From contig JAJXWJ010000040.1 of the NCBI GenBank assembly GCA_021781655.1, forward strand, positions 1 through 29,971: 29,971 nucleotides of DNA, written 5' to 3'. The stretch comes from Bacillota bacterium (GTDB lineage: Bacteria > Bacillota > Clostridia > Clostridiales > Clostridiaceae). How positions within the stretch are numbered: the stretch's first letter is position 1; each line of letters opens with the position of its first letter. A program made the position numbers and the translations under genes. Shown in pieces: positions 9,831-29,235 of this stretch. The notes under the pieces are model-generated. The model did no database searches. It worked only from the letters and a program-made list of their open reading frames with translations, and was not told where the DNA came from.

Positions 9831-9868
9831 ATTATGTTGCTAATAAATAAGAGTAGAGGAGTATGATT

Positions 9869-11392: not shown

Positions 11393-11402
11393 GGTATTAA
11401 TA

Positions 11403-12791
11403 ATGAATTATAAATTTCCAGAAAATTTTTGGTGGGGAGCTGCAACGTCAGGACCACAAGCAGAAGGAAGATTTAATAAAAAGCACAGAAGTGTTTTTGA
11501 CTACTGGTACGATATAGAGCCAGATGCTTTTTTTGATAAGGTGGGACCGGATATAGCTTCTAATTTTTATAATAGCTACAAAGAAGATATAGCAATGATG
11601 AAAAGCATTGGTTTTAATTCCTTTAGAACCTCAATACAGTGGACAAGACTTATAGATGATTTTGAAACTGCTTCAGTAGATGAAGATGGCGTTAGATATT
11701 ATAATTCAGTTATTGATGAAGCAATAAAAAATGGAGTAACACCAGTAATGTGTCTTCATCACTTTGATTTACCTATAGAGTTATATGAAAAATATGGAGG
11801 CTGGGAAAGTAAGCATGTATCTTATTTATTCTCCAAATTTGCTAAAGTATGTTTTGAGCTTTTTGGAGATAGAGTAAAGTATTGGGCAACTTTTAACGAA
11901 CCTATAGTAGTAATAGAGGGTCAATATATTAATGAGTTTCACTACCCTAAAGTAGTAGATGGTAAAAAAGCAGTTCAAGCAGCCTTCAATATAAATCTTG
12001 CTTCTGCAAAAGCTATAGAGGAGTTTAGAAAATGTGAATGTAGTAAGACTGCTAAGATAGGAATAATTTTAAACTTAACACCAGCATATCCAAGATCGAA
12101 TTCAAAAGAAGATATAAAAGCTGCAGAGTTTGCTAATAAATTTAATAATAGAATATTTCTTGATCCAGCAGTACACGGAAGATTTCCAGATGGAATAGAA
12201 GAAATTCTTGAAAGAGAAGGTGTTTTGTGGGAAAATACAGAAGAGGAAATGAAAACTATAGAAAATAATAAAATAGATTTCTTAGGTGTAAACTATTATC
12301 AGCCACTTAGAGTTAAGAAAAGAGAATCTGAATTTGATAATTCTAAAGGATGGCTTCCATATAAACATTTTGAAGGCTACGATATGCCAGGGAAAAAAAT
12401 CAATCCACATAGGGGTTGGGAAATTTACCCTGAAGCAATGTATGATATAGCAATAAACATAAGAGATAACTATAACAATATTCCATGGTATGTTTCTGAA
12501 AATGGAATGGGTGTATATGGAGAAGAAAAATTCTTAAATGAAGAAGGAATGATTGTAGATGATTACAGAATAGAATTTGCAACAGATCATTTAAAATTTC
12601 TTCATAAAGGGATTACTGAAGGAAGTAATTGTTTCGGATATCATCTTTGGACACCTATAGATTGCTGGTCTTGGTCAAATGCCTATAGAAATAGATATGG
12701 TTTTATTTCACTCGATTTAAATACTCAGAAAAAGACGATAAAAAAATCAGGCTACTGGTATAAGAGAGTAACAGAAAACAATGGATTTTAA
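11403..12791 (+). CDS. Glycoside hydrolase family 1 (beta-glucosidase, 6-phospho-beta-glucosidase or beta-mannosidase)
   Basis: GH1 motifs are present: N-terminal FPENFWWGAATSGPQAEG, TFNEP at the acid/base position and SENG at the nucleophile position. Confidence 0.85.
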   Translation: MNYKFPENFWWGAATSGPQAEGRFNKKHRSVFDYWYDIEPDAFFDKVGPDIASNFYNSYKEDIAMMKSIGFNSFRTSIQWTRLIDDFETASVDEDGVRYYNSVIDEAIKNGVTPVMCLHHFDLPIELYEKYGGWESKHVSYLFSKFAKVCFELFGDRVKYWATFNEPIVVIEGQYINEFHYPKVVDGKKAVQAAFNINLASAKAIEEFRKCECSKTAKIGIILNLTPAYPRSNSKEDIKAAEFANKFNNRIFLDPAVHGRFPDGIEEILEREGVLWENTEEEMKTIENNKIDFLGVNYYQPLRVKKRESEFDNSKGWLPYKHFEGYDMPGKKINPHRGWEIYPEAMYDIAINIRDNYNNIPWYVSENGMGVYGEEKFLNEEGMIVDDYRIEFATDHLKFLHKGITEGSNCFGYHLWTPIDCWSWSNAYRNRYGFISLDLNTQKKTIKKSGYWYKRVTENNGF

Positions 12792-12811
12792 AGAATAGGA
12801 GTGAAACAAAA

Positions 12812-13684
12812 ATGTATATACTAACATTTGATATTGGCGGAACAAGCGTAAAATATGGAGTTCTAGATGACAACGGAAAAATATATGAAAGTGGAAAATT
12901 CACAACACCAAAAGAAGATATCGATAAGTTGCTAGAAGAAGTTGTAGCTGTAAAGAATAAATATAGTGATAAATATGAGCTTGGTGGAATAGCTTTGAGT
13001 GCACCTGGAGCAGTAGATAATAAAACAGGAGTAATTGGAGGATATTCAGCTGTTCCATGTATTCATGGTTTTGATTTAAGGGAAAAGCTTAGAAATGCAA
13101 CAGGATTAGAAAGAATATCTATGGAAAATGATGCAAACTGTGCTGCTCTAGCGGAGGTTTGGCTCGGTGCTGCAAAAGACAATAAAGATTCTATATTTAT
13201 GGTTTTAGGTTCTGGAGTTGGTGGAGCTGTAATAAAGGATAGAAAAATTCATACAGGTGCTCATCTTAATGGGGGAGAATTTGGATATATGGTTTTGAAC
13301 GAAAACTGTGAAAATTTAAGTAAGTTAGCGTCTCCTGTTGAAATAGCTAAAAAAGTAGCAAATAGAAAAGGTATAGAGGAAATTAACGGAGAACAGCTTT
13401 TTGCAATGGCTGAAGAGGGGGATAGCATAGCAAAAGAAGAAATTAATAAATTTTATTTTTATATAGCAGCTGCAGCGTATAATCTTCAGTATGCATATGA
13501 TCCGGAAGTAATAGTAATAGGTGGAGGCATAAGCGTAAGAAGAGATTTGATAGAAAATATAGAAAAATCATTAGATTATGTATATGAAAAAATAAAGTTT
13601 GCAAAAGTAAGACCACAATTAAAAACATGTATGTTTATGAATGATTCAAATTTAATTGGTGCGGTATATAATTTTATAAATTAA
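12812..13684 (+). CDS. ROK family sugar kinase (glucokinase, fructokinase or mannokinase-like)
   Basis: It has the ROK N-terminus ILTFDIGGTSVKYG and Gly-rich motifs. Confidence 0.8.
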   Translation: MYILTFDIGGTSVKYGVLDDNGKIYESGKFTTPKEDIDKLLEEVVAVKNKYSDKYELGGIALSAPGAVDNKTGVIGGYSAVPCIHGFDLREKLRNATGLERISMENDANCAALAEVWLGAAKDNKDSIFMVLGSGVGGAVIKDRKIHTGAHLNGGEFGYMVLNENCENLSKLASPVEIAKKVANRKGIEEINGEQLFAMAEEGDSIAKEEINKFYFYIAAAAYNLQYAYDPEVIVIGGGISVRRDLIENIEKSLDYVYEKIKFAKVRPQLKTCMFMNDSNLIGAVYNFIN

Positions 13685-13697
13685 TTAGGAGAAAACT

Positions 13698-15893
13698 ATG
13701 GCGATAAAATATAACGAAAAATCAAGAACTTTCAAATTAGATGCCAAAGATACAAGCTATATTATAGCAATTGTAGATGAAGAGCAATTTATAGGACATG
13801 TTTATTTTGGTGAAAAGCTTCCAGATGAAAATGTAAATTATTTAATGCGACTAGAAGAGGCACCTTTTGTACCGTCTAAAAATAATAGAAATAGATTGCC
13901 GTTTTTAGATTCATTTCCTACAGAATATTCTACTAGTGGCTTAGGTGATTTTAGAGAGCCTTGTCTTAAGGTTACCACTTTGTCAGGTGCAGCAGTCTCA
14001 GGAATATCATATTTATCCCATAAAATCTACAGCGGTAAACCTAAATTAAAAGGTATGCCAGCCACTTTTGGAGAAGAAGACGAATGCACAACTTTAGAAA
14101 TTACTTGTGTAGATAAGCACTTAAATTTGGAAGTTATTTTAGTTTATTCTGTTTTTGAAAATTTGGATGTTATTACAAGAAGTGTGAAAGTTAAAAACAA
14201 TTGCGAAGAAAGTATTATGTTAAACAGAGTTTTATCTTGTTGTGTAGATTTTGATAGGATAGATTTTGATGTTGTTACTCTTCATGGTGCTTGGTCTAGA
14301 GAAAGGCACATAAACAGAAGAACAGTGACTTTAGGAAAACAAGGCTGCTCTTCCTTTAGAGGAGAATCGAGTCATCAAGATAATCCATTTATAGCTGTAA
14401 TGGATAAAACAGCTACAGAGGACAGTGGTAGGGTTTATGGTTTTAACTTTGTGTACTCAGGCAACTTTATAGCACAGGCTGAGGGCTGCCAATTTGATAC
14501 TACCCGTGTAGTAATGGGAATCCATCCTATGGATTTTAGCTGGAAGCTTGAAAATGGTGAAGAATTTACGGCACCAGAAGTAGTAATGGTTTATTCTAAT
14601 GAGGGAATTGGAAAGATGTCAAGAACCCTTCATGATCTATACAGAAATAACCTTATCCGTGGAGAATACAAGGATAAAAAACGTCCAATACTAATTAATA
14701 ACTGGGAAGCTACCTACTTCGATTTCAATACTGATAAATTAATTAGTATTGCAAAGGAAGCCTCAAAGCTTGGAATAGAAATGCTTGTTATGGATGATGG
14801 ATGGTTTGGTAATAGAAGCAGTGATAATTGTTCCCTTGGTGATTGGGTAGTGAACGAAGAAAAGCTTAAGGGTGGGCTAAAATATTTAGTAGATGAAGTT
14901 AATAAGTTAAATATGAAATTTGGAATATGGTTTGAGCCAGAAATGATTTCTCCTGATTCGAAGCTATATAGAGTTCATCCAGATTGGTGCATACATATCG
15001 AAGGAAGAGTTGGAACCCTTTGCAGAAATCAGTATGTATTAGATATAACAAGAGAAGAAGTTAGAGAATATATATATCAAAGTATGAAAAAAGTTTTATT
15101 AAGTGCCAATATCGAATATATTAAGTGGGATATGAATCGTCAGCTAAGCGACTTAGGCAGCAGTGCTCTTCCTTATGATAGGCAGGGAGAATTGTCTCAT
15201 AGATATGTACTTGCAGTATATGACCTTATGGAAAGATTAACGTCAGAGTTTCCACATATTCTTCTTGAAAACTGTTCTGGTGGAGGAGCTAGATTTGATG
15301 CTGGTATGCTTTATTACAGTCCTCAAATTTGGGCTTCAGACGATACTGATGCCATAGAAAGATTAAAGATTCAGCATGGTACGTCTTTGGTATATCCTTC
15401 TTCTGCCATAGGTGCACATGTAAGTGATTGTCCAAATCATACTGTTGGAAGAATAACACCGTTTGAAACTAGAGGACATGTAGCTCTTGCTGGAACCTTT
15501 GGTTATGAATTAGATGTTACCAAAATTTCCAAGGAAGATCGTGATATGATACCAAAACAAGTTAGAATGTATCATAAATATAATGACTTAATTAGAACTG
15601 GTGACTTATACCGTATAAATAGCCTTTTTGAAAATTCAGAGTATAACTGTATAGGTTATGTTTCAAAGGATAAAGCGGAAGCTCTTTTCATATATGTTCA
15701 AGTTTTGGCTAGACCCAATTATCATAGTAGAAGGGTATGTTTAAAAGGATTAGATAAAAATACATACTATCGTAATGAAGAGACTGGAGAAGTTTATTCC
15801 GGTGCAGCTCTTATGAATGGTGGGATTTTAATAAAGGATTTATGGGGAGATTTTAAGAGTAAACTTGTTCATTTTGTTAGAGAAGGGGAATAG
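13698..15893 (+). CDS. Alpha-galactosidase, glycoside hydrolase family 36
   Basis: GH36 motifs are present (LVMDDGWFG, KWDMN, N-terminal MAIKYNEK...). The protein is about 731 aa. Confidence 0.85.
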   Translation: MAIKYNEKSRTFKLDAKDTSYIIAIVDEEQFIGHVYFGEKLPDENVNYLMRLEEAPFVPSKNNRNRLPFLDSFPTEYSTSGLGDFREPCLKVTTLSGAAVSGISYLSHKIYSGKPKLKGMPATFGEEDECTTLEITCVDKHLNLEVILVYSVFENLDVITRSVKVKNNCEESIMLNRVLSCCVDFDRIDFDVVTLHGAWSRERHINRRTVTLGKQGCSSFRGESSHQDNPFIAVMDKTATEDSGRVYGFNFVYSGNFIAQAEGCQFDTTRVVMGIHPMDFSWKLENGEEFTAPEVVMVYSNEGIGKMSRTLHDLYRNNLIRGEYKDKKRPILINNWEATYFDFNTDKLISIAKEASKLGIEMLVMDDGWFGNRSSDNCSLGDWVVNEEKLKGGLKYLVDEVNKLNMKFGIWFEPEMISPDSKLYRVHPDWCIHIEGRVGTLCRNQYVLDITREEVREYIYQSMKKVLLSANIEYIKWDMNRQLSDLGSSALPYDRQGELSHRYVLAVYDLMERLTSEFPHILLENCSGGGARFDAGMLYYSPQIWASDDTDAIERLKIQHGTSLVYPSSAIGAHVSDCPNHTVGRITPFETRGHVALAGTFGYELDVTKISKEDRDMIPKQVRMYHKYNDLIRTGDLYRINSLFENSEYNCIGYVSKDKAEALFIYVQVLARPNYHSRRVCLKGLDKNTYYRNEETGEVYSGAALMNGGILIKDLWGDFKSKLVHFVREGE

Positions 15894-15932
15894 AAACATA
15901 ATGCGAACTAAGTTGAAACTATAAAATGTGTA

Positions 15933-16220
15933 AAAGCAAATCGCAGGTCGTTTTAATTGACAGTTGACAGTTGACAATGGACAATGATGGTTGATTTTCC
16001 TATGCTAAGCTACGGAAAATCTGTAATTTATTTAAATTGGCTAAAGCCAATGGAAACTGATGGTTTTGCTATGCAAAACCTAAAAATAATAATTTGTAGT
16101 TTTTCTGACTGAAAGGAAGAAAAACATCCTTCATTGTCAACTGTCAATTGTCCATTGTCAATTAAAACTCAATGCGTTGCACTTTCTTAGGATTTTTAAA
16201 GAGGCAACTTGCGTCGCATC
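15933..16220. repeat. Copy B (full-length, ~290 bp) of the MITE-like element. It has ~40-bp terminal inverted repeats carrying TTGACA arrays and three internal hairpins.
   Basis: The left end ttaattgacagttgacagttgacaatggacaatgatgg is the inverse of the right end ccttcattgtcaactgtcaattgtccattgtcaattaa. The right flank is the reverse complement of copy A's left part. Confidence 0.85.
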
Positions 16221-16233
16221 TTTATTAAAATTC

Positions 16234-16944
16234 TTATCTTATTATTACAGTTTCAAAAGAAAAGTAATTATAACTATGAACAGATATAGAATATTCAAAA
16301 GCAGTACCATTCTCAAGGTAGGCTACTTGTTCGGCTATAGCCACAGGATCATACGCCTCAAGATGAAGATGTTCTTGTTCAAAACTATTAGATTTTCGAA
16401 CAGAAATTTTTCTATGTGAACTTTGAATTTTAAGACCTAAGTCTTCTTCTATATAAGAATATATAGAAGAATTAGCATGGGCTTTTTTTAAACCTTGAAT
16501 TATATTAATGGGCATATAAGTATTTTCTATTACATAAGGGACATTGTTTACTGATCGAACCCTTACGATATTATAAACAAATTGCTCCTCATCTAAATTA
16601 AGTTTAGTTCTTATTTTTTCGTCACAATTGATTACTTGAAACACTAAAACCTCAGTATCAATTTTTTTACCAGAATATAGAGCAGAGAAGCCTCTAAATT
16701 GATTAGATACAATTAATTTATCCATTTCCGAGGAATTAATACTTTTCACAAAAGTTCCAGAACCTCTTCTTTTAACTATTAATCCTTCAGCTACTAATAT
16801 ATCTAAAGCTTTTTTTATAGTCATTTTACTAGAAGAATATACTTTCGATAAATCTTTTTCAAAAAGAAGTTGTTCATTTGGTTTAAGAATACCCTTAACT
16901 ATTTGGTTTCGTATATCATTTGCAATTTCCATGTATTTTATCAT
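16234..16944 (-). CDS. GntR family transcriptional regulator, HutC subfamily (wHTH plus UTRA)
   Basis: The N-terminal wHTH region is IANDIRNQIVKGILKPNEQLLFEKDLSKVYSSSKMTIKKALDIL. A GAGGAG RBS precedes it. Confidence 0.8.
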   Translation of the reverse strand: MIKYMEIANDIRNQIVKGILKPNEQLLFEKDLSKVYSSSKMTIKKALDILVAEGLIVKRRGSGTFVKSINSSEMDKLIVSNQFRGFSALYSGKKIDTEVLVFQVINCDEKIRTKLNLDEEQFVYNIVRVRSVNNVPYVIENTYMPINIIQGLKKAHANSSIYSYIEEDLGLKIQSSHRKISVRKSNSFEQEHLHLEAYDPVAIAEQVAYLENGTAFEYSISVHSYNYFSFETVIIR

Positions 16945-17174
16945 AATATGCTCCTCGTAAATTAAGTTTTAATATAATGATATTAGCATATTATCATTAT
17001 AAAATATATACTATTAAAAAATAAAAAAGATACTTTATTAAGAATAGTATTATGACATTTCAGCGTAAAGTTTGTATATTTTAAACATGAAATATTTACA
17101 AAAAAAATATATATAGTATTATATGAAGTATATATGTTAACAATTTCATAGTAAAAACAAGGGGTGATAGGATC

Positions 17175-18437
17175 GTGGGTGTATACAAATTTGCATTAAG
17201 GATGATGAATATATTTGCCAGTGAATGTATTTTTTATTTTATCTCGATAATAATATCCATAGCTTTAATTTTTAATTGTCTAAATGTTGTTACAATGAGC
17301 AATTTTATAGGTATGAATGAAACTCAAAATCGAATATTAACTGGAATTCCTTTCTTTTTAGCGTTGATAATTTGCTTGTTTACCTTTTATGCTAATTCTT
17401 ATTTTGTAATAAATAAAACTAAGGAAATGGCTATAGAAGCACTTTGTGGTGTTTCAGAGAGAAAGCTATCTAATTACTTACTGCTTCAAAACTTAATTAT
17501 TGAACTTTCAGGTTTTGTAATTGGTTTAGTCATCGGTATTATGATTCAGCCTATAACGTTAACCTTAGTATACAAAAGTCTTAATAGTAATGGGAATATA
17601 TGGTCGTTGAACATGACTAGCATAGGTGGCACCGTTGCAATTTTAATTATTCAATTATTGTATGTGACTGCAGGTGACTATGCGTTTATTTCTACAAAAG
17701 AGATTAAAGACTTAATGGTATTAGAAAAAGAAATTTATGCTCCAGATAATAGAACAATACGGTTTCCAGGCTTTATGTATGTAATAATTTATTTTATGCC
17801 TGTTGTAATATTATTTAAAGTTTCAGGAAAGACCACAGATTTATTATCCGTTTATGTAATATGTTCACTCATAAGTATAAATGGAATATTGCAGTTTTAT
17901 ATTCCTAAAAAAATAGCTAATATAAAAGAAAAAAGATTTTCTGATAATAAAATAATGATGATATCTTTAAGCAACCTACAGTATTCCTTCAAAAAACTAA
18001 ATTTTCTTATGCTTATGATATCTTCAATAATAGCTTTTGTGCTTGGTCTTTTAGGTTCATTTGCAGACAATCAATATATTAAAATTATGAGTGTAATTGC
18101 TTATTTTAGTATAGTAATTTTAATATCTATAAGCTTAATATATAAGCTTCGTATTGAAGTTCAAAAAAGAAAAGATTCCTTTAGAAATCTCTTACTCATT
18201 GGATATACAAAAGCAGAGGTTAAAAAGATTATTTTAGTAGAAGTATTAATATTTTATGTAATCGCTATAACAATTCCATTAGGCCATATTTTGTTTTATA
18301 TATACACATTTTTATTAGGTGGTATAATTTCTATTTCAGTAGCAATAGCACTTCCTGCTACATATGCTTTAATGTTTACTGCAACAGGGTTAATAGCATA
18401 TCAATCTTATAAAAATATGATAATAAAAGATAAATAA
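17175..18437 (+). CDS. ABC transporter permease, FtsX-like family (copy 1)
   Basis: It is a multi-TM protein with a C-terminal FtsX-like segment (LLIGYTKAEVKKIIL...). It is a paralog of 20844-22094 and uses a GTG start (MGVYKF). Confidence 0.7.
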   Translation: MGVYKFALRMMNIFASECIFYFISIIISIALIFNCLNVVTMSNFIGMNETQNRILTGIPFFLALIICLFTFYANSYFVINKTKEMAIEALCGVSERKLSNYLLLQNLIIELSGFVIGLVIGIMIQPITLTLVYKSLNSNGNIWSLNMTSIGGTVAILIIQLLYVTAGDYAFISTKEIKDLMVLEKEIYAPDNRTIRFPGFMYVIIYFMPVVILFKVSGKTTDLLSVYVICSLISINGILQFYIPKKIANIKEKRFSDNKIMMISLSNLQYSFKKLNFLMLMISSIIAFVLGLLGSFADNQYIKIMSVIAYFSIVILISISLIYKLRIEVQKRKDSFRNLLLIGYTKAEVKKIILVEVLIFYVIAITIPLGHILFYIYTFLLGGIISISVAIALPATYALMFTATGLIAYQSYKNMIIKDK

Positions 18438-18455
18438 TTATAAAGGGGTGCAAAA

Positions 18456-19859
18456 ATGGAAGTATATAAATTAACATTAAAAACAATTAGTATATTTATC
18501 ATAAAATGCATTTTAAATTTTGCATTAATAATAGTATCAACAGCTTTAATTTTCAATTGTTTAAATGTTATTATAATAAAGAATATAATAGGTAGTAATG
18601 GAATTGGAAATCAGACGCATGTAGTAATTCTTTTTTTATTATTGTTAATAATATGTTTAATTTCTTTTTATTGTAATGCTTATTTTTTAGTGAGGAAGAC
18701 AGATAAGCTAGTAAAATCTAAACTTATTAATGCTTCGGAAAAGAAACTATTTGATTACTTATTGATTAAAAATTTTATTATTGAAATTACAGGTTTTGCA
18801 ATTGGTTTTGTTATTGGAATTAAAATGCAGCCAATAATTTTAAATTTTGTGTACAGAATTATTGGTACTAATGGAGATATAAGTAGTTTGAATAATGTTA
18901 GTGTAAGTACATCAATTGCAGTTCTAATTATTCAATTGTATTGCACGATTGTTTATGAGAAAGGGATTATATTAATAAATAAGGCTAAACCTTTAATAAA
19001 AGACAATGTAGTTTATACAAAAAATGTAACAAAAATATATAAACAAATAATTAGAACAAAAAAGTTTGATCCACTTTCTGCTTTTGCTGGCTTGGGAATA
19101 AGTGTTGGAAATAAGGAAATAAAAATTAAAGATAAGAAAAAGAGTGTGCAATTTAAAGCTTTAGATAAGGTTAGCCTCTCTATAAAGAGTGGAGAATTTG
19201 TTTGTATAATGGGACCATCAGGCTCTGGAAAATCAACCTTTTTAAATATATTATCTACAATAGATATGCCTAATGTTGGTATTGTTAAAGTTAATGGTGA
19301 AGATGTTCCTGTTATGCCTCAGAAAAAATTAAGCAGATTTAGATATGAAAATATAGGCTATGTATTTCAAGATTTTAATTTGTTAGAACAATTAACAATA
19401 AGAGAAAATATAAGTGTTCCACTTAAATTAGCGGATATACCTATTAACATAATAGATGAAAAGGTAGTTGAACTAGCAGAGAAGTTAAATATAACTAATA
19501 TTTTAGATAAATTTCCTTATGATTGCTCAGGTGGAGAGAAGCAAAGAGCAGCCTGTGCAAGAGCACTTGTTACAGAACCAAGAATTATAGTAGCAGATGA
19601 ACCAACAGGAAATTTGGATACAAAAAATTCTCATGAGATTTTAAGTATTTTAAGAGAAAGAAATGAAAAGGATGGAATATCTATACTTATGGTTACCCAT
19701 GACGCGCTGCTTGCAAGTTATTCAAAAAAACTCATATTTCTAAGGGATGGTAAAATTGATGAGGTTGTAGAAAGAGGACAATTATCGCAAAAAGAATTTT
19801 ATTATAAAATTGTAGATATCACTTCAAAAGAATCGCAAAGTCTTTTTGATGCTATGTAA
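18456..19859 (+). CDS. Fusion protein with an N-terminal 4-TM fragment homologous to the FtsX-like permease N-terminus joined to a MacB/FtsE-type ABC ATPase domain
   Basis: The N-terminal ~180 aa align to the permeases' first ~180 aa. The remainder has Walker A GPSGSGKST, signature CSGGEKQRAA and Walker B IVADEPTGNLD. The two parts are in one continuous frame. Confidence 0.7.
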   Translation: MEVYKLTLKTISIFIIKCILNFALIIVSTALIFNCLNVIIIKNIIGSNGIGNQTHVVILFLLLLIICLISFYCNAYFLVRKTDKLVKSKLINASEKKLFDYLLIKNFIIEITGFAIGFVIGIKMQPIILNFVYRIIGTNGDISSLNNVSVSTSIAVLIIQLYCTIVYEKGIILINKAKPLIKDNVVYTKNVTKIYKQIIRTKKFDPLSAFAGLGISVGNKEIKIKDKKKSVQFKALDKVSLSIKSGEFVCIMGPSGSGKSTFLNILSTIDMPNVGIVKVNGEDVPVMPQKKLSRFRYENIGYVFQDFNLLEQLTIRENISVPLKLADIPINIIDEKVVELAEKLNITNILDKFPYDCSGGEKQRAACARALVTEPRIIVADEPTGNLDTKNSHEILSILRERNEKDGISILMVTHDALLASYSKKLIFLRDGKIDEVVERGQLSQKEFYYKIVDITSKESQSLFDAM

Positions 19860-19869
19860 TGCAAAACAG

Positions 19870-19900
19870 AAGGCTTAGGTAAACAATTTACCTAAGCCTT
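19870..19900 (+). terminator. Strong hairpin (aaggcttaggtaaa-caa-tttacctaagcctt) separating the two transporter units
   Basis: It has a 14-bp perfect stem but only a weak T-tract. Confidence 0.5.
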
Positions 19901-19909
19901 TAACATATG

Positions 19910-19938
19910 TTGCATTAGAAAAATTATAGATTTATAAT
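19910..19938 (+). promoter_or_regulatory. Near-consensus sigma-A promoter TTGCAT-17-TATAAT for the second transporter unit
   Basis: It reads ttgcat tagaaaaattatagatt tataat, about 40 nt upstream of the TTG start and RBS. Confidence 0.6.
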
Positions 19939-19977
19939 AATGTTATTGTTTACATATACTTTAAAGGGGATGTCAAG

Positions 19978-20829
19978 TTGAAAAAAATAATAGATGCAAA
20001 AAATATTATAAAAACTTACGATATAGCTGTCAGAGGAAGTAAATTCAAAAATAGCATTAAATATTCTTCTGCAGATAATGGTATGCTTAATATTGAAGTT
20101 GTTAAAGGAGAAACAAGTAAATTTAAAGCTTTAGACAAAGTAAGTTTGTCTATTATGGAGGGGGAATTTACATGTGTAATGGGTCCATCAGGATCTGGTA
20201 AGTCCACATTAATAAGTATTTTATCCACAATAGACAGTCCAACCATCGGTAAAATTAAAGTTAATGGAGAAAATGTTATAGAGATGTCAGAAAGAAAATT
20301 AAGCCGATTCAGATATGAAAATATTGGTTATATTTTTCAGGAGTTTAACCTTTTGGATAATATAACCATTAGAGATAATATAGCACTTCCTCTTTTGCTT
20401 AAAAATGTAAATAAAAAAGAAATATATAAAAGAGTAGAAGCTTTAGCGGAAAAGCTTGATATAGTAGGTACTTTGGATAAGCTTCCCTCAGAGTGCTCTG
20501 GAGGACAAAAGCAAAGGGCAGCCTCAGCTAGGGCACTTATTTCTGAGCCTAAAATAATTATTGCAGATGAGCCAACAGGAAATTTAGATTCAAAAAATTC
20601 CCATGAACTTTTGAAAATATTAAAGGAACGAAATGAAAAACAAGGTACATCTGTATTAATGGTTACTCATGATGCAATGATAGCTAGCTACTCAAAAAAA
20701 CTTGTATTCATACGAGATGGAAAAATAGAAACAGAGCTTATAAGAGGAGATTTATCACAAAAGGAATTTTTTTATAAAATAGTCGATATCACTTCAAAAG
20801 AATCTCAAAATTTATTCAATGAAATATAG
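19978..20829 (+). CDS. ABC transporter ATP-binding protein (MacB/LolD/FtsE-like, copy 2)
   Basis: It has Walker A GPSGSGKST, signature CSGGQKQRAA and Walker B IIADEPTGNLD. It uses a TTG start with an AAGGGGA RBS. Confidence 0.85.
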   Translation: MKKIIDAKNIIKTYDIAVRGSKFKNSIKYSSADNGMLNIEVVKGETSKFKALDKVSLSIMEGEFTCVMGPSGSGKSTLISILSTIDSPTIGKIKVNGENVIEMSERKLSRFRYENIGYIFQEFNLLDNITIRDNIALPLLLKNVNKKEIYKRVEALAEKLDIVGTLDKLPSECSGGQKQRAASARALISEPKIIIADEPTGNLDSKNSHELLKILKERNEKQGTSVLMVTHDAMIASYSKKLVFIRDGKIETELIRGDLSQKEFFYKIVDITSKESQNLFNEI

Positions 20830-20843
20830 ATAAGGAGTTAACA

Positions 20844-22094
20844 ATGGGGGTATTAAAATTTTCTATAAAAATGTTAAATTTAGTTGCTAAAGAAAGTATT
20901 TTTTATTTTGTATCAATAATTATTTCAATGGCAATAATATATAATAGTTTAAATATTGTTGTAAGCGATAACATCTTGGGAGCAAGAGGTATAGACAATC
21001 AAGTAATAACTAATATACCATTTTTTTTAGCTCTACTGATATGTGTTTTCACATTTTATGCTAATTCATATTTTGTAATAAATAAAACTAAAGAATTAGC
21101 TATAGCAGCACTTTGTGGTATTTCAAGCGGCGAATTGACTGGCTATTTTTTGGTGCAAAATTTTGTTATTGAAATACTTGGAGGTTTTTTTGGAATAATA
21201 CTAGGAATTCTAATTCAACCTATATATATAGAAATTTTGTACAAATATTTAAGCATAAATGGCAGCGTCTGGCTTATAAATAAGGAGACTATATTTGGAG
21301 CTTTAGGTATTTTGCTTTTACAGCTGTTATATATTACAGCTGGAGATTTTGCTTATATTTCTTCCAAAGAAATCAAGTTTCTAATGACTTTAGAAAAACA
21401 GGTTTATACGCCAGATACAAGAAAAATAAAAGTTAATAACAAGCTATATTTAATTGTATACTGCATTCCTTTTGTGACGGTATTTTTAGGCGTTAATATT
21501 ATTCCATTAGATATGGCATGTTCTATTTACAGCATATATGGGATAGTGAGGTATTATATTCCTAATAAGCTTCTAGATATTAAAGAAAAAAAGTATAGTG
21601 GAAATAAAATATATTTAGTTTCATTAAGTAATTTATACTATTCTTTAAAAAGGCTAACTTTTCTGATTTTAATATTATCATCAGTTATACCTGTAGTTTT
21701 AGGACTGTTAATGATAAATAAAGGAAGCTCAGTTATAAAAATTATGAGCATATTCACATATTGCAGTATTATAGTTTTAATTGCTGTTTGCATGGTGTAT
21801 AAGCTGTTGATAGAAGCTAACAATAGGATGTCTTCATTTAAAAATCTTCTGCTTATAGGATATACAAAAGCTGAGGTTAAAAAGGTAATATTTTCGGAAA
21901 TTATTTTGTTTTATTGTATAGCAGCTATTATGCCGCTCCTTCATGTGCTAGTGTATGTATTTATTTTTAAAGCTGCTAATTACATTACAATATCAATTGG
22001 ATTGGGTTTAATATTATCCTTTGTTTTAATGTTTGGAATAACAGAGTTAATTTCATATAGAGCATATAAAAATTGTGTATTTTCCACCATATAA
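20844..22094 (+). CDS. ABC transporter permease, FtsX-like family (copy 2)
   Basis: It is a paralog of 17175-18437 (MGVLKF... and conserved FYANSYFVINKTKE). An AAGGAG RBS precedes it. Confidence 0.7.
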   Translation: MGVLKFSIKMLNLVAKESIFYFVSIIISMAIIYNSLNIVVSDNILGARGIDNQVITNIPFFLALLICVFTFYANSYFVINKTKELAIAALCGISSGELTGYFLVQNFVIEILGGFFGIILGILIQPIYIEILYKYLSINGSVWLINKETIFGALGILLLQLLYITAGDFAYISSKEIKFLMTLEKQVYTPDTRKIKVNNKLYLIVYCIPFVTVFLGVNIIPLDMACSIYSIYGIVRYYIPNKLLDIKEKKYSGNKIYLVSLSNLYYSLKRLTFLILILSSVIPVVLGLLMINKGSSVIKIMSIFTYCSIIVLIAVCMVYKLLIEANNRMSSFKNLLLIGYTKAEVKKVIFSEIILFYCIAAIMPLLHVLVYVFIFKAANYITISIGLGLILSFVLMFGITELISYRAYKNCVFSTI

Positions 22095-22256
22095 AATGAC
22101 ATTATAAGTTAAAATTTGTATAATTAAAGCAATATGTATTTACTGCTAACAATAGACGTATTATTATTAGTGTAAATAAAAAATATACTTTAATTACTGC
22201 AAAGAAAGGAGATTTATAATTAATAAAACAAATAAAAATATATGGGGGAAGTTTAA

Positions 22257-24299
22257 ATGATTTACAACTTAATTTTAGTAGCAATAATAATCGTAGCAAT
22301 AATAATCGTAGTAAATTTGATTGGTTTGAGAATAATTCCAAATAACAAAATAGGTATTGTTGAAAAATGGTGGTCATCAAAAGGTTCACTAAATTCTCAA
22401 ATTATTGCTCTTAATGGGGAAGCAGGATACCAGCCAGAGGTTTTAAGAGGAGGTATTCATTTTAAAACGCCATTTATTTATAAGGTTCATATTGCACCTC
22501 TTGTAACTATTCCTCAAGGTCAAATGGCATATGTGTTTGCAAGAGATGGAGAAGCACTTGAACCTATGCAGACTTTAGGTAATGTAATCCAAGAAGCTAA
22601 CAATTTTCAAGATGTTCGAGCTTTTATTAAAAATGGTGGGCAAAAAGGTCCTCAAAGAGGAATTGTTCGTGAAGGTACTTACGCCTTTAATCTTGCACAA
22701 TTTATAGTAATAACAGAGGATAGAACGTATTTTCTTCCAATGGGTACAAAAAATGAAGATGCAACAATAAACAAAATGGCAGATGTTTTAAAACAACGCG
22801 AAGCATTTATGCCTATAGTAATAAAAGGTTCTGATGATAAAGCAGGAATTGTAACAGTTCACGATGGACCTTCTCTTCAAAGTGGAGATATTATTGCACC
22901 AATAGTAGGAGAAGATCCTAAAAATAACGAAACATATCATAATAATTTTCAAGACCCAGAAAAGTTTTTAAAAGCAGGAGGCTTTAGAGGTAGACAGTAT
23001 CAAGTGCTTGTAGATGGTACTTACTTTATAAACAGACTTTTTGCCACTGTAGAGTTAATTAATAAAACAGTTATCGATGTTGGATATGTTGGAGTAGTAG
23101 TATCTTATACAGGAGCTAAAGGAAAAGATTCCTCAGGTGATGAATACAAACATGGAGAACTAGTTCCAAATGGGTTTAGAGGAGTTTGGGAGACACCTCT
23201 AATGCCAGGTAAGTATGGTTTTAATACTTATGCAGGTAAGGTTATTATGATTCCAACAACAAATATAATTTTAAAATGGATAAGCAATCAAACAGGAAGC
23301 CATATGTATGATCAAAACTTGAAAGAGGTAGGACTTATAACTAAAGATGCATTTGAGCCTGTACTTCCACTTTCTGTAGTAATGCATATTGACTATAAAA
23401 AGGCACCTCTTGTAATTCAAAGATTCGGTGATATAAAAATGCTTGTTGATCAAACATTAGACCCTATGATTTCAGCATATTTTAAAAATGTAGGACAAAA
23501 CAAGACTTTAATAGATTTAATTCAACAAAGGAATGAAATACAAGAACAAGCGTCGGAAGAAATGAAGGCGAAATTTCAGCACTATAGCTTAGAACTTGAA
23601 GAAGTTTTAATTGGAACGCCATCATCTTCTGCAAATGATAACAAGATTGAATTTATTTTAGCACAGCTTAGAGATAGACAAATTGCTACAGAGCAAATAG
23701 CAACTTATTCTACACAGCAAAAAGCTGCAGAAAAGGAAAAAGAACTTAGAGAAGCAGAATCTAGAGCTTCCCAACAAAAATTCTTAACAGAATCAGAAAT
23801 AAACATTCAAATTGAAAGTAATCAAGGTAAAGCAGAGTATCAAAGATCTTTACAAGAAGCTTCAAAGATTAAAGCTTTAGCAGAAGCAGATGCGGAAAGA
23901 GAAGCAAGGGTTGGTATAGGTAAAGCTATAGCTATAGATGAGCAGGTTAAGGCTTATGGTGGACCACAATATCAAGTACTTCAAGATGTTATGAATAAAT
24001 TTACACAGGCTATTGAAAAGTCAGGAATAGATATTGTTCCAAAAACTGTTATTTCAATGGGTAATAATGAAAATGGTGGAGATGGTGCAAATGCTTTCAA
24101 CATGCTTTTAACTCTTTTATTAGGAGAAAAGCTAGGAGTGAATTTTGATGGTTCTAGGGAAGAAAGCGAAAATGTAAAGAGAATTAAAACGGCTATTTTA
24201 AAATCTATGAATGAAGAAAAATTTAAAGAAGAGGAAATACAGGATGCAATTAAATTAACAAAGGAAACTGAGGAGCAGAGCGCTTCCTCAAAAGAATAA
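22257..24299 (+). CDS. Flotillin-like SPFH/band-7 family protein (FloT/YqiK-like)
   Basis: It has an N-terminal TM segment, an SPFH domain and a long E/A/K-rich coiled-coil flotillin region. The protein is 680 aa. Confidence 0.75.
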   Translation: MIYNLILVAIIIVAIIIVVNLIGLRIIPNNKIGIVEKWWSSKGSLNSQIIALNGEAGYQPEVLRGGIHFKTPFIYKVHIAPLVTIPQGQMAYVFARDGEALEPMQTLGNVIQEANNFQDVRAFIKNGGQKGPQRGIVREGTYAFNLAQFIVITEDRTYFLPMGTKNEDATINKMADVLKQREAFMPIVIKGSDDKAGIVTVHDGPSLQSGDIIAPIVGEDPKNNETYHNNFQDPEKFLKAGGFRGRQYQVLVDGTYFINRLFATVELINKTVIDVGYVGVVVSYTGAKGKDSSGDEYKHGELVPNGFRGVWETPLMPGKYGFNTYAGKVIMIPTTNIILKWISNQTGSHMYDQNLKEVGLITKDAFEPVLPLSVVMHIDYKKAPLVIQRFGDIKMLVDQTLDPMISAYFKNVGQNKTLIDLIQQRNEIQEQASEEMKAKFQHYSLELEEVLIGTPSSSANDNKIEFILAQLRDRQIATEQIATYSTQQKAAEKEKELREAESRASQQKFLTESEINIQIESNQGKAEYQRSLQEASKIKALAEADAEREARVGIGKAIAIDEQVKAYGGPQYQVLQDVMNKFTQAIEKSGIDIVPKTVISMGNNENGGDGANAFNMLLTLLLGEKLGVNFDGSREESENVKRIKTAILKSMNEEKFKEEEIQDAIKLTKETEEQSASSKE

Positions 24300-24429: not shown

Positions 24430-26478
24430 ATGAAACATTCGAAAAAGTTAAAGTATACACTTATTATATCTATATTTTTGATGATTATAATATTTTCAAT
24501 AAGTTTATTTATTACTACAGATAATTTATTTATCCAAAGTAACAAGAAAGAAATAGAAGCAAATTTAAATTTATTTGGAGAAAAAGAAGCTGTAATAATA
24601 GATGACAAAATTAAGAATAATAGCGATATTTTTAGCTATGTACAAAATTTAAAAATTGATAAAACAGGTTATGCATATATTATATCTTCACAAGGAATAA
24701 TGGGTAAAGTTGGTTTGAAAAAGGTTATACAAAATTATAATGAAATAAGAAATTATAACTTTGTAGGAAGTGGTGGGTTTGTTGATTTGACAAGTGAAGT
24801 TGTTACTTATAATTCCATAGGTAACACAAGTTTCAAACTAATTGTGGTCCATAATAAAAGTGAAATTTACAAGGCTATAAACGACGATATAACATATTTG
24901 GTGTTGTTTGCAATAATTAGAATTATTGGATCCTTTATATTTGTAAGTTTGATATATAAATTTTTAGTTGAAAATCCATTAAATATATTAATAAAAAAAG
25001 TAAATAAAATATTTAATAACGATTATAGTAAAGATGATATTTTAAATAGTGTCATTGAAAGTAAAAATGAATTTAGCGTTTTAGCTATATCTATTAATGA
25101 TATGGTAAAAAGTATAAATGAATATATAGAAAAGCTTAATGGTAAAAATAAAGAATTAGAAGAAAGCAAAAGGCATATAAGTAACTTAGCATATTATGAT
25201 AGGGTTACAAAGCTTCCTAATAGATTAAATTTTAGTGAGAAGGTACAGAAAGGAATAGAAGAGTTCAACAATAAAGGTACTAGTTTTGCAATATTATTTA
25301 TGGATTTAGACAACTTTAAATTTGTTAATGATTTTTACGGTCACTCCATTGGTGATAAAATTTTGTATAATTTTGCAAATGAATTAAATAAACTTTCACA
25401 TAAATACGATTTAATAATATCTCGATTTGGAGGAGATGAATTTACAATCTTAATTAAAAATCCTATAGAAAATATGATTGAAAAGATTACAGATGAAATT
25501 CATCGATTGCTTAGTAAGCCTTTTTATATAGAAGCTCAACAATTTTTTATAAGTGTAAGTATAGGAGTAACATTTTGCCCTAAAGATGGAATAACAATAG
25601 ATGAGCTGTTAAAAAATGCAGATACAGCTATGTATAAGGCAAAAGAAGATGGGAAAAATCAAACTGTTTTATTCAACAAAGAAATGAAGGATAAGCTTGT
25701 TAAAAAAACGGAACTTAAATTAAAAATGAGAGAAGCTATAGATTGTGAGCAGTTTAGTTTGAATTATCAGCCATTATACCATATTAATAAGGATAAAATA
25801 TTTGGGTTTGAAGCGCTTATAAGATGGAAAGACAATGGCATAACAATATCACCTTTAGACTTTATCCCTATTGCGGAAGAAACAAAATTAATTATACCAC
25901 TAGGCTACTATATATTTAAAGAAGTATGCAAATTTATAAAGAATATAAGAAACTTAGGCTATTATGATATCAAGGTTGCAGTTAACGTTTCGGTAATTCA
26001 GCTAACGGAGAAAGGTTTTAGCGATAATGTACTAACTATTTTGGAGAAAGAAAACATACCTTATGAATGCATAGAAATAGAAATAACAGAAAGTAAGTTA
26101 ATGGAATCATATGACTTTTGCAAACATAACATTGAGAAGCTTACAAAAAAAGGTATAGAATTTGCTATAGATGATTTTGGTACAGGCTATTCTTCATTAA
26201 ATTATTTAAAGAAGCTTCCACTATCTATAATTAAAATTGACAAAAGCTTTATAGATGATTTACTTGAAGCTAAGAGTAGAAGTTTTGCAGAGGCTATAAT
26301 AGTTCTTTCACATACCATTAACCTAAAGGTAATTGCTGAAGGCGTTGAAAAAAAAGAACAGTTTGAGGTTTTAAAAGGTTTAAAATGCGATATAATTCAA
26401 GGGTATTATATAAGTAAGCCATTAAAAGAGGAAGAAGCAATAAAAATGCTTATGAAAAATAAAGGGACTGCTCTTTAA
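24430..26478 (+). CDS. Membrane sensor with an extracytoplasmic domain between two TM segments, followed by GGDEF (diguanylate cyclase) and EAL (phosphodiesterase) domains
   Basis: The GGDEF motif is RFGGDEF and the EAL motif is FEALIRW. TM segments lie near residues 10-30 and 150-175. Confidence 0.85.
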   Translation: MKHSKKLKYTLIISIFLMIIIFSISLFITTDNLFIQSNKKEIEANLNLFGEKEAVIIDDKIKNNSDIFSYVQNLKIDKTGYAYIISSQGIMGKVGLKKVIQNYNEIRNYNFVGSGGFVDLTSEVVTYNSIGNTSFKLIVVHNKSEIYKAINDDITYLVLFAIIRIIGSFIFVSLIYKFLVENPLNILIKKVNKIFNNDYSKDDILNSVIESKNEFSVLAISINDMVKSINEYIEKLNGKNKELEESKRHISNLAYYDRVTKLPNRLNFSEKVQKGIEEFNNKGTSFAILFMDLDNFKFVNDFYGHSIGDKILYNFANELNKLSHKYDLIISRFGGDEFTILIKNPIENMIEKITDEIHRLLSKPFYIEAQQFFISVSIGVTFCPKDGITIDELLKNADTAMYKAKEDGKNQTVLFNKEMKDKLVKKTELKLKMREAIDCEQFSLNYQPLYHINKDKIFGFEALIRWKDNGITISPLDFIPIAEETKLIIPLGYYIFKEVCKFIKNIRNLGYYDIKVAVNVSVIQLTEKGFSDNVLTILEKENIPYECIEIEITESKLMESYDFCKHNIEKLTKKGIEFAIDDFGTGYSSLNYLKKLPLSIIKIDKSFIDDLLEAKSRSFAEAIIVLSHTINLKVIAEGVEKKEQFEVLKGLKCDIIQGYYISKPLKEEEAIKMLMKNKGTAL

Positions 26479-29217: not shown

Positions 29218-29235
29218 AAAAATATAGTACAATAG

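What the first reader, a model, noticed from the sequence alone, without database searches (positions are those of the whole stretch)
17175..22094. Duplicated FtsX-like permease / MacB-type ATPase locus with an in-frame permease-fragment::ATPase fusion
The gene order is permease1, then [4-TM permease N-fragment fused to ATPase1], then ATPase2, then permease2. Both permeases and both ATPase domains are clear paralogs. The 467-aa middle ORF keeps ~180 aa homologous to the permease N-terminus, continuous in frame with a complete ATPase domain. No internal ATG is available for the ATPase part. The fusion is either a functional novel half-transporter-like subunit or a fresh rearrangement scar from tandem duplication. 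The second unit has its own near-consensus promoter and a separating hairpin. Such short FtsX-type transporters often mediate antimicrobial-peptide resistance or export.
Basis: partly seen in the sequence, partly recalled or inferred. Interest (0 to 1): 0.55.

Follow-up and report, generated by a model that had tools for sequence, protein, structure and literature searches.

The report
Permease relic fused to ABC ATPase
Two neighbouring copies of a small bacitracin-transporter-like ABC pump sit side by side in a Clostridium-like genome, and in one copy the ATPase gene has lost its own start and is read as one protein with a decaying four-helix leftover of a duplicated permease gene; this is a real rearrangement confined to one lineage, not a new kind of transporter.

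Summary
The gene order is P1 (17175-18437), a 467-aa chimera (18456-19859), ATPase A2 (19978-20829) and P2 (20844-22094). P1 and P2 are 51% identical, and the A1 domain and A2 are 61% identical. Chimera residues 1-~180 match the first four TM helices of P1.

The chimera is not an assembly error: the identical protein occurs on independently assembled contigs with different flanks. It is unique to this lineage: two billion-scale protein searches found no other fused homologue. Relatives carry single permease+ATPase units in either order.

The N-terminal piece is a copy of P1, not P2. It has:
- changed about 6x faster than P1 (51 vs 8 unique changes, p=2e-8);
- lost the conserved TM2-TM3 cytoplasmic-loop motif;
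- a flat codon-position profile and omega ~0.5, against ~0.02 for P1;
- a 7-bp frameshift in a 95%-identical sister lineage.

It has nevertheless stayed open and hydrophobic far beyond neutral expectation. The ATPase part keeps its catalytic motifs and is under purifying selection.

Best reading: an old in-frame deletion scar. The ATPase is translated from the relic's start codon, and the relic survives as a tolerated membrane tether. The transporters are BceAB relatives that lack the extracellular domain and the two-component system. Interest is modest.

The parts
16234..16944 (-). GntR/HutC-type regulator (GntR HTH + UTRA domain), divergently transcribed from P1. It stays linked to the ABC locus in a strain whose left flank is different.
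   Evidence: Pfam UTRA E=3.3e-33, GntR E=1.5e-13. Linked to P1 in L001-L004, L015 and L017, although L001 has a different left flank.
17175..18437 (+). P1: 420-aa, 10-TM permease with two FtsX domains, BceB-like but without an extracellular domain. GTG start with a strong SD.
   Evidence: BceB 7tcg_A, E=4.6e-7; 10 TM; TM7-TM8 loop ~10 aa; SD -10.5 kcal/mol. The start is ATG in L003. The C-terminal third has 14 synonymous and 1 non-synonymous difference vs L007, omega ~0.02.
18456..19859 (+). Chimeric 467-aa ORF: permease relic (codons 1-~180) fused in frame to the complete ATPase A1.
   Evidence: Identical protein on at least 4 independent contigs. No other full-length homologue in 5.8e9 protein clusters. 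None fused among 1.84e9 representatives.
18456..19004 (+). Relic of a P1 duplicate (TM1-TM4, that is the first FtsX domain). It evolves fast, and the TM2-TM3 loop motif is degraded (K83D, E84K, A86V, I87K, G92N).
   Evidence: - 45.7% identity to P1, against 33.7% to P2 and 21-31% to other family members.
- Relative-rate test: 51 vs 8 unique changes, p=2e-8.
- 18 of 30 family-conserved positions kept, against 20 of 21 for P1.
- Codon-position divergence 0.30/0.32/0.40.
- 5 synonymous and 10 non-synonymous differences vs L007.
- Staying free of stops has probability <5e-5 under a neutral simulation, and TM hydrophobicity is retained.
18836..18842 (+). Site of a 7-bp deletion (one unit of an AATTTTA/AATTTTG direct repeat) in sister lineage L007. 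The deletion frameshifts the relic, so the ORF ends at 139 aa.
   Evidence: The window version is colinear with P1 and P2, so the deletion is the derived state.
18942..19007 (+). Junction zone (codons ~163-184). Permease homology fades here and ATPase homology begins at V185. It contains an SD-like GAGAAAGGGA (18957-18966) 8 nt upstream of an in-frame ATA (18975), possibly the fossil of A1's own ribosome-binding site and start.
   Evidence: Alignments. SD duplex energies -7.2/-7.7 kcal/mol. Sequence.
19008..19859 (+). ATPase A1 domain (BceA/PsdA-like NBD). It has Walker A, Q-loop, a signature SGGE (Q->E, also seen in P0016), Walker B and H-loop. It also carries a ~30-aa insertion after strand 1 that it shares with A2 and P0002.
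   Evidence: 5 synonymous and 1 non-synonymous difference vs L014. Its rate equals that of A2 (30/20, 21/26, 24/23, all not significant).
19870..19900 (+). Perfect 14-15-bp hairpin 10 nt after the chimera's stop codon. It is terminator-like but has no U-tract on the + strand. It separates unit 1 from unit 2.
   Evidence: -27.2 kcal/mol, z=-6.7. Unchanged in L001-L004 and L014.
19910..19938 (+). Candidate promoter for unit 2: TTGCAT-17 nt-TATAAT. This is a consensus match only.
   Evidence: Read from the sequence. Not among the stronger sites of the scan.
19978..20829 (+). A2: free-standing 283-aa ATPase, TTG start with SD.
   Evidence: (PsdA E=2.6e-64, BceA E=6.3e-63).
20844..22094 (+). P2: 416-aa, 10-TM permease, paralogue of P1.

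Best explanation
The locus holds two paralogous BceAB-like (type VII / MacB-fold) ABC transporters whose permeases lack an extracellular domain. Unit 1 is P1 plus ATPase A1, in permease->ATPase order. Unit 2 is A2 plus P2, in ATPase->permease order. The only regulator in the window adjacent to the locus is a divergent GntR-family gene.

Origin of the chimera (inferred):
- In unit 1, P1 was duplicated.
- An in-frame deletion then removed the distal ~240 codons of the duplicate, the spacer, and A1's ribosome-binding site and start.
- A1 can now be made only as a 467-aa chimera, translated from the relic's start codon.

Function (inferred):
- The ATPase moiety remains functional and most likely energises P1. 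The 2 ATPase : 1 permease ratio is assumed by analogy with BceAB.
- The 4-TM relic no longer works as an FtsX transport or coupling domain.
- It persists as an in-frame, hydrophobic, membrane-inserted tether. Selection acts only against stop codons, frameshifts and loss of hydrophobicity.

Shown here: the anatomy, the lineage restriction, fixation in the species, the relic's relaxed constraint, and the ATPase's constraint.
Inferred: the order of events, translation as one protein, and the partnership with P1.
For: Real and fixed in the species:
- The identical chimera occurs on at least 4 independent assemblies. One has a different left flank, and another contig has a different right flank.
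- The fragment ORF is intact on the parts covered by two further partial contigs.

Restricted to this lineage:
- No other full-coverage homologue in the 5.8e9-cluster search.
- A HMMER scan of 1.84e9 representatives with the fragment gave only 20 hits. All are permeases of 152-471 aa, and the eight sequences read, including the shortest and the two longest, have no ATPase part.
- Relatives in C. akagii, C. acidisoli, C. hydrogenum and a Clostridiaceae MAG, and the closest relative of A1 (L005), have separate P and A genes in either order.

The relic derives from P1 and is degenerate:
- It is closest to P1 (45.7% vs 33.7% to P2).
- Tajima relative-rate test: 51 vs 8 unique changes, p=2e-8.
- It keeps only 18 of 30 family-conserved positions. 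The losses cluster in the TM2-TM3 cytoplasmic loop, where MacB has its major coupling helix (PMC5985334).
- Codon-position divergence is flat at 0.30/0.32/0.40. P1-P2 gives 0.36/0.19/0.53 and A1-A2 gives 0.23/0.15/0.48.
- Against L007 the relic plus junction has 8 synonymous and 15 non-synonymous differences. The adjacent P1 has 14 and 1 (Fisher p=5e-4).
- A 7-bp frameshifting deletion sits in the relic in L007.

The relic is still translated or selected:
- None of 20,000 neutral simulations stayed stop-free, and TM hydropathy is retained.
- There are no indels relative to P1 over 183 codons.
- The relic's start has a strong SD, at -10.6 kcal/mol.

The ATPase is constrained:
- The catalytic motifs are intact; the signature is SGGE rather than SGGQ.
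- 5 synonymous vs 1 non-synonymous difference.
- Its rate equals that of A2.

N-terminal additions are tolerated in this ATPase clade: several relatives of 325-404 aa carry unrelated N-terminal extensions.
Against: - The omega estimates rest on few substitutions (15 and 8 events) and on short metagenomic contigs.
- The L007 frameshift is a single 1,087-bp contig. It shows that at least one lineage tolerates breaking the ORF, which also fits a fully dead gene.
- L015 carries a P1 truncated at about codon 231, which suggests unit 1 is dispensable (the contig could also be chimeric).
- There are no expression or protein data.
- Retained hydrophobicity and conservative replacements are also what a functional, neofunctionalised membrane domain would show.
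- Independent initiation at TTG145, or at the SD-like site followed by ATA174, cannot be excluded.
- The organism and the substrate are unknown.
Confidence: 0.58

Rival explanations
1. Functional new subunit. The 4-TM FtsX domain fused N-terminally to the NBD is a working 'reverse-order MacB-like' half-transporter. It would act either as a homodimer or as an added membrane module that docks onto P1. On this view, its fast evolution reflects neofunctionalisation.
For: - The ORF has stayed open and the four TM segments have stayed hydrophobic far beyond neutral expectation.
- The topology places the junction in the cytoplasm, so the NBD is on the correct side of the membrane.
- Many replacements are conservative: F->L, R->K, I->V.
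- The chimera is fixed in every strain of the window lineage.
- The G117, G121, P126, N37, N74 and N106 positions are retained.
Against: - The most conserved family motif, the TM2-TM3 loop K-x-K-E-x-A-I...G, is lost. This loop is the coupling-helix position in MacB.
- Omega is ~0.5 and the codon-position profile is flat.
- A sister lineage carries a frameshift.
- No second example of this fusion exists in billions of proteins.
- The 10-TM permease P1 already supplies both FtsX bundles, as in BceB with its 2:1 complex (PMC9169098).
Confidence: 0.15
2. Dead gene. The chimera, and perhaps the whole of unit 1, is a non-functional pseudogene on its way out. P1, if still used, borrows A2.
For: - L007 has a frameshift in the relic.
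- L015 has P1 truncated at about codon 231 next to an unrelated methyltransferase gene.
- P1(1-231) has omega 0.175 vs L015, higher than the neighbouring sugar genes at 0.06-0.08.
- A hairpin lies directly after the chimera, and unit 2 is complete on its own.
Against: - The A1 domain keeps every catalytic motif and has 5 synonymous vs 1 non-synonymous difference.
- A1's rate equals that of A2.
- The C-terminal part of P1 has omega ~0.02.
- 467 codons remain open in a genome region of ~25% G+C, and 184 of them are highly diverged.
- Both P1 and the chimera have strong SD sequences.
Confidence: 0.2
3. Assembly or sequencing artefact. On this view a missing base or a chimeric contig falsely joins a permease fragment to an ATPase gene.
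For: The window is metagenome-like, and related contigs are short.
Against: - The same 467-aa protein is recovered from an NCBI MAG and three ENA assemblies of different samples. The surrounding SNPs and flanks differ between them.
- The fragment has no indel relative to P1 over 183 codons, and it lacks the remaining 240 codons altogether. No single-base error could undo the fusion.
Confidence: 0.01

Closest known systems
BceAB-type antimicrobial-peptide sensing/resistance transporters (B. subtilis BceAB, PsdAB; PDB 7tcg, 9ugg)
   Same: - The ATPases are closest to PsdA and BceA among solved structures (E=2.6e-64 and 6.3e-63).
- P1 matches BceB over residues 14-295 (E=4.6e-7).
- The permease is a single polypeptide of 10 TM helices with two FtsX bundles and two linking helices.
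- The ATPase is encoded separately in the standard unit.
   Different: - There is no extracellular domain. The TM7-TM8 loop is ~10 aa, and the permease is 416-420 aa against 646 aa for BceB.
- No BceRS-type two-component system lies nearby. The locus and its relatives have one-component regulators instead: GntR here, HTH_59 or MarR elsewhere.
- One ATPase copy is fused to a permease relic.
- The substrate is unknown.
MacB (fused NBD-4TM type VII ABC half-transporter)
   Same: One polypeptide combines a MacB-family NBD with a 4-TM FtsX-type bundle, and both termini of the bundle are cytoplasmic (PMC5985334).
   Different: - The domain order is reversed: TMD then NBD here, NBD then TMD in MacB.
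- There is no periplasmic domain.
- The coupling-helix loop is degenerate.
- The chimera arose by deletion and is confined to one lineage.
Compact 10-TM FtsX-type permease family of Clostridium (uncharacterised; C. akagii, C. acidisoli, C. neuense, C. hydrogenum)
   Same: P1 and P2 are full members of this family, at 34-43% identity with the same length and topology. The paired ATPases are 59-63% identical to A2.
   Different: The relatives examined have one permease and one free ATPase per unit; two of the six genome loci (L008, L010) had no ATPase match among neighbouring ORFs of at least 100 aa. Only this lineage has two units in tandem and the relic::ATPase chimera. One distant relative (L019) has a different chimera, a permease C-terminal half fused to its ATPase.

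Membership tests
Type VII (MacB/FtsX-fold) ABC transporter superfamily | Permease with FtsX-type 4-TM bundle(s) | tested here: met
   Pfam PF02687 FtsX matches P1 (E=3.7e-13, two stretches) and P2 (E=9.2e-7, two stretches). P1 matches BceB in the PDB.
Type VII (MacB/FtsX-fold) ABC transporter superfamily | MacB/LolD/FtsE-class nucleotide-binding domain with intact Walker A/B, signature and H-loop | tested here: met
   ABC_tran E~1e-31. The best NCBIfam models are the L_ocin_972, DarD, FtsE and LolD classes, all below their equivalog cut-offs. The motifs are read from the alignment.
BceAB-type transporters | 10-TM permease encoded as a single polypeptide | tested here: met
   The hydropathy profile gives 10 TM helices, with K/R-rich loops on the cytoplasmic side. 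This is a prediction only, not a structure.
BceAB-type transporters | Large (~200 aa) extracellular domain between TM7 and TM8 | tested here: not met
   The TM7-TM8 loop is ~10 aa (GSFADNQYIK). The protein is 420 aa against 646 aa for BceB. The definition is taken from PMC5985334.
BceAB-type transporters | Genetic and functional coupling to a BceRS-like two-component system | tested here: not met
   No histidine kinase or response regulator is present among the window ORFs scanned, which cover ~8.0-28.5 kb except one 106-aa ORF. The regulator is GntR/UTRA. Relatives have HTH_59 or MarR regulators. Genome regions outside the window could not be examined.
BceAB-type transporters | 2 ATPase : 1 permease stoichiometry and antimicrobial-peptide resistance function | not testable with these tools
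   This needs biochemistry or genetics. The stoichiometry for BceAB is from PMC9169098.
MacB-like fused half-transporter | NBD fused N-terminally to a 4-TM bundle that carries a periplasmic domain between TM1 and TM2 | tested here: not met
   The order here is 4-TM then NBD, and the TM1-TM2 loop is ~13 aa.
MacB-like fused half-transporter | Conserved cytoplasmic TM2-TM3 coupling helix that engages the NBD | tested here: inconclusive
   The loop is present, but five family-conserved residues are replaced: K83D, E84K, A86V, I87K, G92N. Whether it still contacts the NBD cannot be decided without a structure.

The most novel reading that the evidence does not exclude
The chimera is a working membrane-integral ATPase subunit with the domain order 4-TM FtsX bundle -> NBD. 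The MacB-family review read here describes the fused NBD as N-terminal, and says that where two permease units are fused the NBD is always separate (PMC5985334). Either two such chimeras form a minimal 'reverse MacB' transporter, or they surround the 10-TM P1 with two extra TM bundles. The fast evolution of the TM part would then reflect adaptation to that new role.
Probability: 0.15. Interest if true: 0.55.

Novelty: new variant of a known kind. Interest (0 to 1): 0.3.

Why it matters
It is a cleanly dated natural example of how ABC-transporter domain fusions can arise. An in-frame deletion removed an ATPase's own start codon, so the gene now depends on a leftover membrane domain to be translated. 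Selection then keeps that leftover open and hydrophobic while its original functional motif decays.

If the tether were shown to matter, it would be a TMD->NBD arrangement not among those described for the MacB/FtsX superfamily in the review read here.

The locus also points to a rare, uncharacterised Clostridium family of BceB-like 10-TM permeases. They have no extracellular domain and no partner two-component system. Their function cannot simply be copied from BceAB, where the extracellular domain and the kinase are central.

As it stands, this is a rearrangement confined to one lineage, of modest general importance.

Tried and rejected
Searches that found nothing or failed:
- A JGI metagenome scan with fragment-derived peptide patterns and one with an exact 32-mer found no further variants. 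The dN/dS estimates therefore rest on L007, L014, L015 and L017.
- A genome scan with a 16-sequence family alignment failed because it was too divergent. It was repeated with 5 sequences. The low G+C and the Clostridium relatives suggest Clostridiaceae.
- The word-index protein search with the fragment alone returned only P0121 and missed even P1. It was replaced by the exhaustive HMMER scan.
- Rfam at gathering threshold found no RNA family in the window. The hairpin is therefore not a known riboswitch or leader.

Structure prediction was not run. The mixed alignment made for it placed the permease fragments wrongly (P1 N-part at 24% instead of 46% identity), and a single-chain model would not decide function anyway.

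Models rejected:
- Origin by one tandem duplication. A tandem-duplication junction joins a downstream point to an upstream point. In a P->A unit, permease codon ~183 joined to ATPase codon ~3 is the opposite, a deletion. In an A->P unit it would give A - frag::A - P, not the observed P1 - frag::A1 - A2 - P2.
- 'The fragment derives from P2.' Identity to P2 is 33.7% against 45.7% to P1.
- 'Fresh scar.' Nucleotide divergence from P1 is 34%.

Full report
**Observation.**
- P1, 17175-18437, 420 aa, GTG start.
- A 467-aa ORF, 18456-19859.
- A2, 19978-20829, 283 aa, TTG start.
- P2, 20844-22094, 416 aa.

Pfam finds FtsX in P1 and P2. It finds ABC_tran in residues 236-384 of the 467-aa ORF and in A2. 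Pairwise comparisons:
- P1 and P2 are 51% identical over their whole length (E=9e-147).
- Residues 1-161 of the middle ORF are 50% identical to P1 residues 1-161 (E=1e-39).
- Residues 185-465 of the middle ORF are 61% identical to A2 (E=1e-123).

A hydropathy scan gives ten TM segments in P1 and P2 and four in the first ~175 residues of the chimera. The K/R-rich loops indicate an N-in topology, so the junction lies in the cytoplasm. The only in-frame ATGs before the Walker A region are M124, which has no Shine-Dalgarno (SD) sequence, and M252.

The hairpin after the chimera is also real: 19870-19900, -27.2 kcal/mol, z=-6.7. It has no U-tract on the + strand. The 'near-consensus promoter' is TTGCAT-17-TATAAT (sequence). 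That is an ordinary match in DNA where promoter-like sites are barely above shuffled expectation (73 vs 54+/-6.6).

**Not an artefact, and fixed in the species.** The exact 467-aa protein is encoded on an NCBI MAG contig (GCA_027350465.1) and on three ENA contigs from different samples.
- These contigs are 99.0-100% identical to the window across the locus.
- They differ in SNPs elsewhere, and L001 has a different left flank: PTS EIIA and chemotaxis receptors instead of the melibiase operon.
- A JGI contig (L014) has a different right flank from window position 22248 on.
- Two more partial contigs (L017, L018) also carry an intact fragment ORF.

**Restricted to this lineage.**
- A search of 5.8 billion protein clusters with the chimera found only itself at full coverage. 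Every other hit was a free ATPase covering about half of the query.
- An exhaustive HMMER scan of 1.84 billion representatives with the fragment gave only 20 hits. All are permeases of 152-471 aa, and the eight sequences read have no ATPase part. The permease family itself is therefore rare.
- The closest relative of A1 (P0002, 65%) sits in an ordinary ATPase->permease unit (L005).
- Six loci were found in Clostridium akagii (two), C. acidisoli, C. neuense, C. hydrogenum and a Clostridiaceae MAG. Four of them show one permease next to one free ATPase, in either order; the other two (L008, L010) had no ATPase match among neighbouring ORFs of at least 100 aa.
It is essentially met.

**What the transporters are.** Among solved structures, A2 is closest to the BceAB-type ATPases PsdA and BceA (E~1e-63). 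P1 matches BceB (E=4.6e-7, residues 14-295). BceB has ten TM helices, a ~200-aa extracellular domain between TM7 and TM8, and a partner two-component system (PMC5985334). BceAB is a 2:1 complex (PMC9169098). Here the ten helices are present, but two defining features are missing:
- The TM7-TM8 loop is about ten residues.
- No kinase or response regulator is among the window ORFs scanned. The adjacent regulator is a divergent GntR/UTRA protein.

Relatives have HTH_59 or MarR regulators. These are therefore BceAB relatives without an extracellular domain, not members of the BceAB type in the strict sense.

**Origin of the fragment.**
- The fragment is closest to P1: 45.7% identity, against 33.7% to P2 and 21-31% to other family members.
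- Third-codon-position divergence is 0.40 for P1-fragment, 0.53 for P1-P2 and 0.48 for A1-A2. The P1/fragment split is therefore younger than the duplication of the two units.
- Permease homology fades between residues ~163 and ~183, and ATPase homology begins at V185. There is no foreign linker.
- In a permease->ATPase unit, this junction is of the deletion type. One tandem duplication cannot make it and still leave a full P1 upstream.
- The simplest history (inference) is a duplication of P1, followed by an in-frame deletion of about 240 codons, the spacer and A1's start.
- An SD-like GAGAAAGGGA lies 8 nt before an in-frame ATA at codon 174. It may be the fossil of A1's own ribosome-binding site and start.

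**State of the fragment: four lines of evidence for strongly relaxed constraint.**
1. Relative rate. With P2 as outgroup, the fragment has 51 unique amino-acid changes and P1 has 8 (chi-square 31.3, p=2e-8).
2. Conserved positions. The fragment keeps 18 of 30 positions that are at least 80% conserved in the family, whereas P1 keeps 20 of 21. The losses K83D, E84K, A86V, I87K and G92N cluster in the TM2-TM3 cytoplasmic loop. That is where MacB has its major coupling helix.
3. Codon positions. Divergence from P1 is nearly flat at 0.30/0.32/0.40. P1-P2 gives 0.36/0.19/0.53.
4. Sister lineage. Against the 95%-identical contig L007, the fragment has 5 synonymous and 10 non-synonymous differences, and the TM4-junction stretch has 3 and 5. 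The adjacent C-terminal third of P1 has 14 and 1 (omega ~0.5 vs ~0.02; Fisher p=5e-4).

L007 also has a 7-bp deletion at window 18836-18842, within a short direct repeat. It frameshifts the fragment, so the ORF ends at 139 aa. The window version is colinear with P1 and P2, so the deletion is the derived state.

**The fragment is not neutral, however.** I simulated neutral change from P1 with the observed 187 differences in 549 nt and the local base composition. None of 20,000 runs stayed free of stop codons. Simulated TM hydropathy dropped to 0.4-0.8, against the observed 1.3-2.3. There is also no indel over 183 codons. Selection has therefore kept the frame open and the helices hydrophobic, which implies the region is translated.

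**State of the ATPase part.**
- The catalytic motifs are present; the signature is SGGE rather than SGGQ, a variant also seen in relative P0016.
- Against L014 it has five synonymous differences and one non-synonymous one, S230I. That change lies in a variable insertion.
- Its core evolves at the same rate as A2: 30/20, 21/26 and 24/23 unique changes with three outgroups, all non-significant.
- Several relatives of this ATPase clade carry unrelated N-terminal extensions (325-404 aa). N-terminal additions seem to be tolerated.

**Best explanation (confidence ~0.58).** The chimera is an old deletion scar that is still in use. A1 is made from the fragment's start codon, which has a strong SD of -10.6 kcal/mol. 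It is produced as a membrane-tethered ATPase and most likely serves P1. The fragment has lost its FtsX coupling function and persists as a hydrophobic leader.

**Rivals.**
- A truly functional TMD->NBD half-transporter (~0.15). The retained hydrophobicity and fixation support it. The degraded coupling loop, omega ~0.5, the L007 frameshift and its uniqueness count against it.
- A dead gene, with P1 borrowing A2 (~0.2). The L007 frameshift supports it. So does L015, where P1 is truncated at about codon 231 beside an unrelated methyltransferase gene. P1(1-231) also has omega 0.175 against 0.06-0.08 for the neighbouring sugar genes. Constraint on A1 and on the C-terminal third of P1 counts against it.
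- An assembly artefact (~0.01).

**Caveats.** The substitution counts are small, and they come from short metagenomic contigs. The L015 contig could be chimeric. There are no expression data.

**Verdict.** This is a real, well-described chimeric gene confined to one lineage, inside a tandem pair of BceAB-like transporters that lack the extracellular domain. It is a new variant of a known kind and of modest interest (0.3).

Noticed in passing
window 5355-5474, 15916-16226, 29227-29415: A family of palindromic intergenic repeats (arms of 40-81 nt, 74-94% alike), MITE/REP-like. The copy at 15916-16226 has its own internal inverted repeat (15933-15999 / 16119-16185). It sits exactly where synteny with strain L001 breaks, at the left edge of the GntR-ABC module. 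L001's copy resembles the window's 29227-29395 copy more closely (95%). There is no Rfam match.
   Followed up: partly
window ~15889-22248: The GntR + P1 + chimera + A2 + P2 block behaves as a cassette with variable flanks. L001 has a different left flank (PTS EIIA, MCPs). L014 has a different right flank (MerR-like protein and serine resolvase) starting 9 bp before the SPFH gene's start codon. G+C is lower in the block (23-29%) than in the flanks (30-35%).
   Followed up: partly
window 16999-17170: The GntR-P1 intergenic or promoter region is hypervariable in strain L003: 28 differences including indels in ~170 bp. The flanking genes are almost identical. L003 also has ATG instead of GTG as the P1 start. 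This may be a recombined regulatory region.
   Followed up: no
L019 1384-4717 (ENA ERZ1303574): A distant relative shows a different chimera. After a MarR gene come three ORFs: a 219-aa ORF holding only the first FtsX domain; a 468-aa ORF that overlaps it by ATGA and joins the permease C-terminal half in frame to an ATPase that keeps its own Met; and a second full 423-aa permease. Permease-piece::ATPase read-throughs may recur in this family.
   Followed up: partly
window 19050-19150 and 20020-20115; P0002: A1, A2 and their closest relative P0002 share a ~25-30-aa, K-rich, poorly conserved insertion between the first beta strand (..KIY) and the FKALD strand of the NBD. Other close ATPases (P0012, P0013, P0016) lack it. 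Its function is unknown.
   Followed up: no
proteins P0034, P0048, P0066, P0078 (relatives, not in window): Several Clostridium ATPases of this clade (325-404 aa, one annotated as 'BceA' in C. vincentii) carry an uncharacterised N-terminal domain of up to ~145 aa with no Pfam hit on record.
   Followed up: no
L015 5990-7027 (ENA ERZ27236847): In a 92-93%-identical lineage from the same sample as L002, synteny with the window runs from 9501 to 17866 with two short gaps. It ends inside P1 at about codon 231, next to a minus-strand SAM-methyltransferase gene that is absent from the window. This could be a deletion, an insertion or a chimeric contig.
   Followed up: partly
window 123-424: Three tandem copies of a 114-nt unit overlapping at a 94-nt spacing, 96-98% identical, at the left end of the window.
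   Followed up: no
window 22257-24299 and 24430-26478: Directly downstream of the locus lie a 680-aa SPFH/Band-7 membrane protein and a GGDEF-EAL c-di-GMP protein with an N-terminal TM/sensor region. No link to the transporter was established.
   Followed up: no
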